Shown piece after piece: positions 5,640-7,512 of a stretch of 64,000 nt of DNA. The notes below the pieces were generated by a model. That model ran no database searches. It worked only from the letters and a program-made list of their open reading frames with translations, and was not told the origin of the DNA. The position numbers and the translations under genes are program-made. This stretch comes from the human T2T-CHM13v2.0 reference genome, Homo sapiens. Positions within the stretch are counted from its first letter, which is position 1. Each line of letters begins with the position of its first letter. The stretch spans positions 1,536,001 to 1,600,000 of the forward strand of contig CP086569.2 of NCBI GenBank assembly GCA_009914755.4, written 5' to 3'.

Positions 5640-7512
5640 GCTAGCTTTCTTTCTCTCTTTCTCTCTCTTTCTCTTTCTCTCTTTCTCTTGCTCTCTTTCT
5701 CTTTCTCTCTTTTTCTTTCTCTTTCTCTCTCTCTTTCTCTTTCTCTCTCTTTCTCTTTGTCTCTCTTTGTCTCTCTGTCTCTCTGTCTCTCTCTTTGTCT
5801 CTCTCTCTCCTCTTTCTCTCTCCTCTCTCTTTCTCTCCTCTCTTTCTCTCTTTCTCTCCCTCTCTCTCTCTCCCTCTTTCTCTTTCTCTCTTTCTCTCTC
5901 TTTCTCTTTCTCTTTCTCTCTCTCTTTCTCTCTCTCTTTCTCTCTCTCTTTCTCTCTCTCTTTCTCTCTCTTTCTCTCTTTCTCTCTTTCTCTTTCTCTC
6001 TCTCTCTCTTTCTCTTTTTCTCTCTTTTCTTTCTCTTTCTCTCTCTCTCTCTCTTTCTCTCTCTCTTTCTCTCTCTCTTTCTCTCTTTCTCTCTCTCTCT
6101 CTCTTTCTCTCTCTTTCTCTCCTCTCTCTTTCTCTCTTTCTCTCCCTCTCTCTCTCTCCCTCTCTTTCTCTCTTTCTCTCTCTTTCTCTCTCTTTCTCTC
6201 TCTCTTTCTCTCTCTTTCTCTCTCTCTTTCTCTCTCTCTTTCTCTCTCTCTTTCTCTCTCTCTTTCTCTCTCTCTTTCTCTCTCTCTTTCTCTCTCTCTT
6301 TCTCTCTCTTTCTCTCTTTCTTTCTCTTTCTCTCTCTCTCTCTTTCTCTTTTTCTCTCTTTTCTTTCTCTTTCTCTCTCTCTCTCTCTCTTTCTCTCTCT
6401 CTTTCTCTCTCTCTTTCTCTCTCTCTTTCTCTCTCTCTTTCTCTCTCTCTTTCTCTCTCTCTTTCTCTCTCTCTTTCTCTCTTTCTCTCTCTCTCTCTTT
6501 CTCTCCTCTCTCTTTCTCTCTTTCTCTCCCTCTCTCCCTCTCTTTCTCTCTTTCTCTCTTTCTCTCTCTTTCTCTCTTTCTCTCTCTTTCTCTCTCTCTT
6601 TCTCTCTCTCTTTCTCTCTTTCTCTCTCTCTTTCTCTCTCTCTTTCTCTCTCTCTTTCTCTCTCTCTTTCTCTCTCTCTCTCTTTCTCTCTCTCTCTTTC
6701 TCTTTCTCTCTCTCTCTTTCTCTTTTTCTCTCTTTTCTTTCTCTTTCTCTCTCTCTTTCTCTCTCTCTTTCTCTCTTTCTCTCTCTCTTTCTCTCTCTCT
6801 TTCTCTCTCTTTCTCTCTCTCTTTCTCTCTCTCTTTCTCTCTCTCTTTCTCTCTCTCTTTCTCTCTCTTTCTCTCTCTCTCTCTTTCTCTTTCTCTCTCT
6901 TTCTCTCTCTTTCTCTCTCTCTTTCTCTCTCTCTTTCTCTCTCTCTTTCTCTCTCTCTTTCTCTCTCTTTCTCTTTCTCTCTCTCTTCTTCCTCCCTCCC
7001 TCTCTTCCTCCCTCCCTCTCTTCCTCCCTCCCTCTCTTCCTCCCTCCCTCTCTTCCTCCCTCCCTCTCTTCCTCCCTCCCTCTCTTCCTCCCTCCCTCTC
7101 TTCCTCCCTCCCTCTCTTCCTCCCTCCCTCTCCCTCCCTCTCCCTCCCTCTCCCTCCCTCTCCCCCTCCCCCTTTCTCTCTGTTTCTCTTTCTCTTTCTC
7201 TCTGTTTCTCTTTCTCTTTCTCTCTGTTTCTCTTTCTCTCTGTTTCTCTTTCTCTCTGTTTCTCTTTCTCTTTCTCTCTGTTTCTCTTTCTCTTTCTCTC
7301 TGTTTCTCTTTCTCTGTTTCTCTTTCTCTGTTTCTCTTTCTCTGTTTCTCTTTCTCTCTCTCTTTCTCTCTTTCTCTCTTTCTCTCTTTCTCTCTCTCTT
7401 TCTCTTTCTCTCTCTCTTCCTCTTTTTCTCTCTCTCTCTTTCTCTTTCTTTCTCTCTTTCTCTCTCTCTTCCTCTTTCTCTTTCTCTCTCTCTCTTTCTC
7501 TCTTTCTCTCTT
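5640..7512. repeat. ~1.87-kb homopyrimidine(+)/homopurine(-) low-complexity tract
   Basis: Almost exclusively C/T on the + strand: (TCTCTCTTTC)n-like units; 16-bp unit cctccctccctctctt x~9 at 6975-7125; (TCTCTGTTTCTCTTTCTC)n at 7190-7340. Directly abuts the poly-A end of the L1 fragment at 7525. Confidence 0.95.

What the first reader, a model, noticed from the sequence alone, without database searches (positions are those of the whole stretch)
5640..7512. 1.87-kb near-pure homopyrimidine/homopurine tract abutting an L1 poly-A end
Seen in sequence: about 1,870 bp in which the + strand is essentially only C and T. It contains several internal tandem sub-arrays: (TCTCTCTTTC)n, a 16-mer cctccctccctctctt x~9, and an 18-mer tctctgtttctctttctc x~8. 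The tract ends 12 bp from the poly-A (poly-T on +) end of the antisense L1 fragment at 7525. Inference: the tract most plausibly grew out of the L1 A-tail by (GA)n/(GAAA)n/(GGGA)n microsatellite expansion. Established knowledge: long mirror-symmetric purine/pyrimidine tracts can form intramolecular triplex (H-DNA), stall replication and transcription, and are often highly length-polymorphic. A tract this long is unusual and is the kind of sequence that is collapsed or mis-sized in short-read assemblies. The 654/662/643-aa 'ORFs' over it are artefacts.
Basis: partly seen in the sequence, partly recalled or inferred. Interest (0 to 1): 0.55.

Follow-up and report, generated by a model that had tools for sequence, protein, structure and literature searches.

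The report
Kilobase polypyrimidine tract from L1 tail
This is a real 1.9-kb stretch of human DNA made almost only of C and T on one strand, sitting where the poly-A tail of an old L1 retrotransposon should be; it is an unusually long example of a well-known kind of repeat that can form triple-stranded DNA, not a new kind of element.

Summary
The tract runs 5645-7530 (1886 bp). It has 790 C, 1080 T, 16 G and no A, so it is 99.15% pyrimidine, with one uninterrupted run of 1384 bp. It is a compound repeat, CTTT(CT)k. Its right end touches the 3' terminus of a 5'-truncated antisense L1 (7531-8734) with no gap, and the purine strand is the L1 sense strand. Every other polypyrimidine tract in the window also abuts the A-tail of an antisense Alu, so a retroelement-tail origin is well supported. 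No target-site duplication could be found, which leaves that one test inconclusive. The tract holds 33 non-overlapping perfect mirror repeats, the longest 119 bp, and so meets the sequence definition of an H-DNA motif many times over. The long ORFs are open only because of base composition. Actual triplex formation, length polymorphism and assembly accuracy could not be tested here. Long homopurine/homopyrimidine tracts, their tail origin and their H-DNA behaviour are already described. This is a large but ordinary member of that class, so interest is low.

The parts
5645..7530 (+). Whole polypyrimidine (+) / polypurine (-) tract, 1886 bp, 99.15% C+T, 42.7% G+C
5645..5797 (+). Distal segment A: CTTT(CT)k carrying 6 G interruptions. 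Five of them (5759-5797) share one sequence context at 8-12 bp spacing, which indicates one substitution later amplified.
5798..6985 (+). Segment B: pure CTTT(CT)k containing a higher-order block of about 334-384 bp present three times. Landmarks: C2/C3/C3 at 5837/5858/5872, 6121/6144/6158 and 6505/6528/6536; T5/T4 at 6015/6025, 6349/6359 and 6723/6733; an exact 34-mer at 6014, 6348 and 6722.
6199..6317 (.). Longest perfect mirror repeat (arms of 59 nt, 1-nt spacer; the 119-nt string equals its own reverse)
6986..7172 (+). Segment C, C-rich: 16-mer CCTCCCTCCCTCTCTT x8-9 (6991-7118 perfect), then CCCTCCCTCT x4, then two C5 runs. Positions 7122-7172 match the canonical G-quadruplex pattern on the minus strand and the i-motif pattern on the plus strand.
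7173..7344 (+). Segment D: G-marked units (TCTCTGTTTCTCTT context) repeated 10 times at 22/16/14-bp spacing, indicating one substitution propagated by unit duplication
7345..7530 (+). Segment E, next to the L1: pure CTTT(CT)k, reading (AG)kAAAG on the L1 sense strand and running straight into the L1 3' end
7531..8734 (-). 5'-truncated L1 fragment (3' 1.2 kb: end of ORF2 plus 3'UTR). It is 87% identical to the full-length antisense L1 at 27414-28627. Its 3' terminus abuts the tract.
5444..5619 (-). Left arm of a 177-bp inverted repeat (82% identity) that brackets the tract, the L1 and 261 bp. Its nature is unknown; a pre-existing palindromic element is one possibility.
8996..9171 (+). Right arm of the same inverted repeat
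5568..7629 (-). Span of the artefactual ORFs on the minus strand (5568-7532, 654 aa; 5641-7629, 662 aa). The + strand ORF at 5611-7542 (643 aa) overlaps it. The products are E/R/K or S/L/F low-complexity strings.

Best explanation
The tract is a compound homopurine/homopyrimidine repeat that occupies the poly(A)-tail position of an old, 5'-truncated L1 inserted antisense to the window's + strand.

Proposed history (inferred):
1. The A-tail acquired A-to-G changes, which gave (GAAA)/(GA)/(GGGA)-type seeds.
2. The seeds grew by replication slippage.
3. Beyond about 50 bp, H-DNA-induced fork stalling makes such tracts prone to larger expansions.
4. The array also grew by tandem duplication of marked units and of a 334-384-bp block.

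Properties shown from sequence: the product is a dense array of perfect pyrimidine mirror repeats and meets the H-DNA motif definition throughout. One 51-bp segment also fits the G-quadruplex pattern.

Expected consequences (from literature, not tested here): triplex formation under negative supercoiling, orientation-dependent stalling of replication and transcription, fragility, length polymorphism, and poor coverage in sequencing.

It is most likely a non-functional by-product of retroelement-tail instability and encodes nothing.
For: Composition and extent are shown.

The tract abuts the L1 3' terminus with no gap, and the purine strand is the L1 sense strand.

The same arrangement holds for all other pyrimidine tracts in the window, each next to the tail of an antisense Alu. 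About 62 Alu 3' ends in the window show tails of every length, from plain A(n) up to 171-, 249- and about 1400-bp purine tracts.

Signs of continuing tandem turnover:
- The 16 G interruptions fall into about 3 identical-context groups, so only about 3 independent purine substitutions occurred in 1886 bp.
- The adjacent L1 is 13% diverged from a younger L1.
- An exact 34-mer and paired rare landmarks recur at 334 and 374 bp.

Mirror repeats: 145 centres have arms of at least 10 nt, 51 have at least 20 nt and 22 have at least 30 nt. Coverage is 95%. There are 33 non-overlapping repeats, against 0-7.6 centres of at least 20 nt in composition-matched or Markov shuffles.

Literature:
- L1 and Alu tails are a major birthplace of A-rich microsatellites (PMC3812793).
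- Long mirror repeats arise from simple-tandem-repeat expansion, and H-motifs diverge in abundance above about 25-nt arms (PMC12214015).
- The PKD1 2.5-kb tract has 23 mirror repeats and stalls forks (PMC11667243).
Against: No target-site duplication is detectable between the left flank of the tract and the sequence right of the L1 5' end. L1 plus tract is therefore not proven to be one insertion unit.

A T9 run lies 12 nt to the left of the tract (5624-5632), separated from it by non-A-rich sequence. A simple tail model does not predict this.

No orthologous or alternative-haplotype sequence could be examined, so the growth history is inferred from internal structure only.

Triplex formation itself is not computed or measured.
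Confidence: 0.78

Rival explanations
1. A polypyrimidine tract was already there, and the L1 inserted at its edge. This could be chance, or it could be because L1 endonuclease nicks pyrimidine-run/purine junctions and a T-rich 3' end primes on the poly(A).
For: The + strand carrying the tract is the strand that would be nicked in target-primed reverse transcription (geometry inferred). No target-site duplication defines the insertion unit.
Against: A target-site duplication drawn from a pre-existing tract would leave CT-rich sequence immediately right of the L1 5' end. Positions 8735-8760 read ACAATGAATGTCAGGCATCC..., which is not CT-rich. Five or six other tracts in the same window all sit at retroelement tails, and a generic tail-expansion process explains that more simply.
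Confidence: 0.08
2. 3' transduction, or a tail inherited already expanded. Under this reading the L1 transcript read through into a GA-rich flank at its source locus and was polyadenylated downstream. The T9 at 5624-5632 would then be the remnant of the real tail.
For: A T9 run lies 12 nt beyond the left end of the tract, after the non-repetitive 14-mer CCAATTGAAGCTAG.
Against: No AATAAA-like signal lies upstream of that A9 on the L1 sense strand (read). No target-site duplication follows the T9. Most of the present length must in any case be post-insertion, given the block triplication and the amplified G-marked units.
Confidence: 0.06
3. The length or internal order is partly an assembly artefact, an expansion or collapse of a shorter or longer true allele.
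For: GA-rich, triplex-forming repeats cause HiFi coverage drops and assembly breaks in human T2T data (bioRxiv 10.64898/2026.07.13.738322).
Against: The tract is not a monotonous array. It has ordered, distinct segments, unique landmarks and imperfect block copies, which is not what collapse or over-extension typically produces. No independent assembly was available.
Confidence: 0.1
4. It is a selected functional element. Examples would be a CU-rich RNA platform for PTB-type proteins if transcribed from the + strand, a GA-binding-factor or insulator site, or a recombination-promoting element.
For: UCUU and CUCUCU motifs dominate the + strand. The residual strand skews are TA +0.060 and GC +0.030 after masking, which suggests that + is the sense strand of a transcribed unit (skew norms recalled from memory). 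Clusters of long tracts are reported in the pseudoautosomal region and in brain-expressed genes (cited in PMC4538819).
Against: There is no conservation, expression or binding data. The structure shows rapid neutral-looking turnover. The same process has produced unrelated motifs at neighbouring Alu tails.
Confidence: 0.04

Closest known systems
[quoted passage not shown]
   Same: Both are kilobase-scale, almost pure C+T on one strand and packed with mirror repeats. This tract has 33 non-overlapping perfect ones. The expected behaviour is the same: H-DNA, orientation-dependent fork stalling and fragility.
   Different: This tract is T-rich (57% T) and built from CTTT(CT)k units. It is purer (99.15%) but shorter. 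It sits at an L1 tail in a window with no recognisable exon. No disease link or experimental data exist for it.
Retroelement-tail-derived purine microsatellites: FXN (GAA)n in an Alu, RFC1 (AAGGG)n at an AluSx3 tail, UGT2B7 (GAAA)n (PMC11667243; PMC3812793)
   Same: All originate in an A-rich retroelement stretch through A-to-G change followed by expansion. All are homopurine on the element's sense strand and are H-DNA-forming.
   Different: Those are single-motif repeats with defined pathogenic thresholds. This one is a mosaic of several motifs plus a 334-384-bp higher-order block, and it stems from an L1 tail rather than an Alu tail.
Long R.Y tracts of Bacolla et al. 2006 (at least 250 uninterrupted bp; clustered in the pseudoautosomal region and in introns of brain-expressed genes)
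   Same: The uninterrupted run of 1384 bp far exceeds that threshold. The window holds a cluster of such tracts: 1886, about 1390 and 247 bp, plus smaller ones.
   Different: I could not read that paper or map the window. Whether this tract is in their list, or lies in the pseudoautosomal region, is unknown.
H-DNA motifs catalogued in T2T-CHM13 (PMC11879447; PMC12214015)
   Same: It satisfies the motif definition. Consistent with the finding that long mirror repeats come from tandem-repeat expansion, its mirror symmetry is largely a by-product of symmetric repeat units (Markov-5 shuffles recover part of it).
   Different: The longest perfect arm here is 59 nt, just under the 60-nt cut-off used there for 'large' H-DNA and far below the 797-nt record. 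What stands out is total length and purity, not arm length.

Membership tests
Long homopurine/homopyrimidine (R.Y) tract | At least 250 uninterrupted purine/pyrimidine base pairs (threshold recalled from the Bacolla 2006 abstract) | tested here: met
   Uninterrupted run of 1384 bp at 5798-7181
H-DNA motif (sequence definition) | Perfect mirror repeat with arms of at least 10 nt, spacer of at most 8 nt, and at least 90% pyrimidine on one strand | tested here: met
   145 centres, 33 non-overlapping repeats and 95% coverage. The longest is 59+1+59 nt at 6199-6317.
H-DNA (structure) | Intramolecular triplex actually forms (S1, permanganate or DEPC reactivity under supercoiling) | not testable with these tools
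   No triplex energy model or experimental data are available here.
Retroelement poly(A)-tail-derived microsatellite | Starts at the 3' terminus of a non-LTR retroelement | tested here: met
   The tract ends at 7530 and the L1 3' end starts at 7531.
Retroelement poly(A)-tail-derived microsatellite | [quoted passage not shown] | tested here: met
   The L1 is on the minus strand and the tract is purine on the minus strand. The same holds for the Alu-associated tracts.
Retroelement poly(A)-tail-derived microsatellite | Element plus tail bracketed by a target-site duplication | tested here: inconclusive
   The best local match between 5570-5650 and 8735-8775 is no better than shuffles (p = 0.18-0.97). 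It may have decayed or been lost.
Retroelement poly(A)-tail-derived microsatellite | Orthologous or older alleles show a short A-rich tail at the same site | not testable with these tools
   No primate or human pangenome sequence is accessible. Exact-protein look-ups and a metagenome scan found nothing.
VNTR / length-polymorphic locus | Different allele lengths among haplotypes | not testable with these tools
   No second copy of the locus was obtained.
SVA 5' hexamer region | Tandem (CCCTCT)n followed by Alu-like, VNTR and SINE-R parts | tested here: not met
   No CCCTCTCCCTCT occurs in the tract. The flanks are an L1 and unique sequence.
Protein-coding gene | ORF open for reasons other than composition, with a non-degenerate product | tested here: not met
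   All six frames are open because stop codons need A or G on the + strand and T on the - strand. The products are ER/EK or SL/FL strings.

The most novel reading that the evidence does not exclude
All kilobase- and hundred-base-scale purine/pyrimidine expansions in this 64-kb window are co-oriented. There are 23 mixed pure pyrimidine runs of at least 25 nt on the + strand and none of purine, although Alu 3' ends number about 28 on + and 34 on -. This could mean that tail-derived R.Y expansion is orientation-dependent relative to the local direction of replication or transcription. That would fit the reported fork stalling only when the purine strand is the lagging-strand template. Clusters like this one would then record fork or transcription polarity. 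Alternatively, they could mark a recombination-active, pseudoautosomal-like domain.
Probability: 0.15. Interest if true: 0.5.

Novelty: already known. Interest (0 to 1): 0.2.

Why it matters
In practice, this tract and its 1.4-kb neighbour at 58746-60140 are likely to be hard to sequence, mis-sized in short-read assemblies, variable in length, and possible sites of fork stalling or breakage. That matters to anyone genotyping or interpreting variants in this locus.

Conceptually it adds nothing new. It is a clean textbook illustration of how a retrotransposon tail can grow into a kilobase H-DNA-forming array, by slippage plus block duplication.

Tried and rejected
- Ungapped autocorrelation and a MAFFT alignment of blocks were uninformative on two-letter sequence. 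Run-length encoding and rare landmarks revealed the higher-order block instead.
- The target-site duplication search used several window sizes, shuffles and empirical controls. Nothing was significant.
- I tried to find the same locus elsewhere. Three exact-protein look-ups with window ORFs and one metagenome scan with a unique 28-mer from the left flank all returned nothing. No human genome collection is available, so the chromosomal location, the L1 subfamily and allele variation stayed out of reach.
- An Rfam scan found only an Alu/7SL hit at 19216-19332.
- Bacolla et al. 2006 is not held, so its catalogue could not be checked.
- An SVA origin for the C-rich segment is rejected.
- A coding reading of the ORFs is rejected.
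- No coding sequence is involved, and short-read contigs would break at the tract anyway.

Full report
**Observation.**
The window is human-type sequence. It has about 62 Alu 3' ends in 64 kb, L1 fragments, and one full-length antisense L1.

The natural limits are 5645-7530 (1886 bp). That span has C 790, T 1080, G 16 and no A, so it is 99.15% pyrimidine at 42.7% G+C. One run of 1384 bp, 5798-7181, has no purine at all. TRF reports a single array with a 12-nt consensus CTTTCTCTCTCT, 161 copies and 79% matches. The feature is real and far beyond chance.

**Anatomy.**
Run-length encoding and unit counting show that the bulk is CTTT(CT)k. There are 43 twelve-mers, 23 eight-mers, 23 six-mers and 16 ten-mers. 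The longest perfect tandem run is only 7 x 12 bp, so this is a compound, cryptically simple tract and not a clean microsatellite.

Five segments can be told apart:
- **A (5645-5797)** carries 6 G interruptions.
- **B (5798-6985)** is pure.
- **C (6986-7172)** is C-rich. It holds the 16-mer CCTCCCTCCCTCTCTT in 8 perfect copies (6991-7118), then CCCTCCCTCT x4 and two C5 runs.
- **D (7173-7344)** has G-marked units.
- **E (7345-7530)** is pure again, up to the L1.

C2/C3/C3 occur at 5837/5858/5872, 6121/6144/6158 and 6505/6528/6536. T5/T4 occur at 6015/6025, 6349/6359 and 6723/6733. An exact 34-mer occurs at 6014, 6348 and 6722. Part of the length therefore came from duplication of a block of roughly 350 bp, not only from slippage.

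The 16 G residues fall into three identical-context groups of 1, 5 and 10. About three independent substitutions to purine were then copied by unit duplication. The neighbouring L1 differs by 13% from a younger L1. So few independent interruptions imply that most of the array is much younger than the insertion, or is continually homogenised. This is an inference.

**Relation to the L1.**
Positions 7523-8734 align at 87% with the 3' 1.2 kb of the full-length antisense L1 at 27414-28627, and the L1 body begins at 7531. The junction reads ...CTCTTTCTTT|CATTGTACTTTAAGTCCTGGGGTACATGTGCAG. The tract therefore starts exactly where the A-tail should be, and no plain poly-T is left. The purine strand is the L1 sense strand.

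I tested the classical hallmark, a target-site duplication flanking L1 plus tail. The left flank (5570-5650) was compared with the sequence right of the L1 5' end (8735 onward), and nothing exceeded shuffles or empirical controls. That test is inconclusive. The duplication may have decayed or been lost at an unstable boundary.

The sequence right of the L1 is not CT-rich. This argues against insertion into or at the edge of a pre-existing tract, because the duplicated target would then be tract sequence.

**Window-wide control.**
The strongest support for a tail origin comes from the rest of the window. Every other pyrimidine-rich tract on the + strand ends at the A-tail of an antisense Alu:

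| Tract | Adjacent antisense Alu starts at |
|---|---|
| 3866-3894 | 3895 |
| 35316-35361 | 35368 |
| 35641-35778 | 35788 |
| 36241-36414 | 36414 |
| 43529-43775 | 43776 |
| 58746-60140 | 60153 |

Roughly 40 antisense retroelement 3' ends times a 15-bp tolerance covers about 1% of the window, so six or seven coincidences cannot be chance. The Alu tails in the window range from plain A(n), through 20-40-nt A/G tails, to 171-, 249- and about 1400-bp purine tracts.

The literature describes L1 and Alu tails as the main birthplace of A-rich microsatellites (PMC3812793). It attributes long mirror repeats to tandem-repeat expansion, with H-motifs becoming over-abundant above about 25-nt arms (PMC12214015).

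**Structure-forming potential.**
With the usual motif definition (perfect arms of at least 10 nt, spacer of at most 8 nt), the counts are:

| Minimum arm length | Mirror centres |
|---|---|
| 10 nt | 145 |
| 20 nt | 51 |
| 30 nt | 22 |

Coverage is 95%, and there are 33 non-overlapping repeats. The longest is a 119-nt perfect mirror at 6199-6317. Mononucleotide shuffles and Markov-1, -3 and -5 models give 0 to 7.6 centres of at least 20 nt. Much of the symmetry follows from repeating symmetric units, as the Markov-5 result shows.

For comparison, the PKD1 intron 21 tract has 23 perfect mirror repeats in 2.5 kb (PMC11667243). In T2T-CHM13 the longest H-DNA arm is 797 nt, and an arm cut-off of 60 nt defines 'large' motifs (PMC11879447). 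Segment 7122-7172 also fits the G-quadruplex/i-motif pattern.

Whether a triplex forms was not computed or measured. It is expected from established knowledge of (GA)n/(TC)n-type H-motifs.

**ORFs.**
The ORFs of 654, 662, 643, 638 and 618 aa are open only because the + strand lacks A and G and the - strand lacks T. Their products are ER/EK or SL/FL strings.

**Context.**
The tract, the L1 and 261 bp are bracketed by a 177-bp inverted repeat (5444-5619 and 8996-9171, 82% identity). Its nature is unknown. It may be an older palindromic element into which the L1 inserted.

After masking the tracts, the Alus and three L1 segments, the + strand keeps T>A (+0.060) and G>C (+0.030). From memory, these have the sign and size of transcription-coupled skews in human introns. 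The + strand may therefore be the sense strand of a gene, which would make the tract a CU-rich stretch of pre-mRNA, as in PKD1. This is a weak inference.

The window is also unusually rich in tandem arrays. Together with the cluster of long R.Y tracts, this recalls the pseudoautosomal or subtelomeric regions where such tracts are reported to cluster (Bacolla 2006, cited in PMC4538819). I could not map the window, so this remains a lead only.

**What could not be done.**
No human genome, pangenome or primate collection is reachable with these tools. Exact-protein look-ups and a metagenome scan found nothing. Locus identity, L1 subfamily, allele-length variation and assembly accuracy are therefore open. 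GA-rich triplex-forming repeats are known to depress HiFi coverage, so the exact length should be treated with some caution. The ordered, landmark-rich structure nonetheless argues that the tract is real.

**Verdict.**
I correct the boundaries and the '18-mer', and add the higher-order block. The thing is a very long, very pure member of a thoroughly described class: long homopurine/homopyrimidine, H-DNA-forming, retroelement-tail-derived repeats. It is ordinary in kind, notable only in size, and scores low on interest. The only reading with some novelty is the strict co-orientation of all such expansions in the window, which might reflect replication or transcription polarity.

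Noticed in passing
window 58746-60140: A second kilobase-scale polypyrimidine tract: 1387 bp over 58746-60132, 97.8% C+T and 63% G+C. It includes an 18-mer, CTCCCTCCTCCGCTTT, repeated about 13 times at 59850-60080, and several long G-quadruplex-pattern stretches on the minus strand (for example 59146-59320). 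It ends at the A-tail of an antisense Alu (60153-60430).
   Followed up: partly
window 3866-3894, 35316-35361, 35641-35778, 36241-36414, 43529-43775: Smaller pyrimidine tracts, up to 247 bp of (TCCT/CCCT)n, each directly abutting the A-tail of an antisense Alu. They give a graded series from normal tails to large expansions.
   Followed up: yes
whole window: Strict strand asymmetry. There are 23 mixed pure pyrimidine runs of at least 25 nt on the + strand and no purine runs, although Alus are about 28 on + and 34 on -. After masking tracts, Alus and L1s the + strand keeps a TA skew of +0.060 and a GC skew of +0.030, as expected for the sense strand of a transcribed unit.
   Followed up: partly
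window 5444-5619 and 8996-9171: A 177-bp inverted repeat (82% identity, only these two copies in the window) brackets the tract, the L1 fragment and 261 bp of other sequence. Its origin is unknown; it could be a palindromic element split by the L1.
   Followed up: partly
window 27421-33425 (minus strand): A full-length antisense L1 of about 6 kb. ORF1 is 287 aa and ORF2 is broken into four ORFs. Its A/T-rich tail is short and unexpanded, in contrast to the older fragment at 7531-8734.
   Followed up: partly
window 21672-24033: A 2.3-kb tandem array with a 126/255-bp unit (9-18 copies, 79-85% matches). It has only a weak 46-bp similarity to the L1 ORF2 3' region.
   Followed up: partly
window 26004-26501; 33454-34504; 40153-40734 and 47057-47851; 42631-42820, 44441-44601, 50089-50198: Many further tandem repeats: a 43-bp GC-rich minisatellite x11.6; AT-rich arrays of 22/81/232 bp next to the L1 5' end; two complex (TATC)n/(ATAG)n arrays in opposite orientation; and a 50-bp unit recurring at three places. 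This density of tandem arrays is reminiscent of subtelomeric or pseudoautosomal DNA, but that is unverified.
   Followed up: no
window 5624-5632: A T9 run lies 12 nt to the left of the tract, separated from it by the non-repetitive CCAATTGAAGCTAG. It could be a remnant of a tail, which would hint at 3' transduction, or it could be coincidental.
   Followed up: partly
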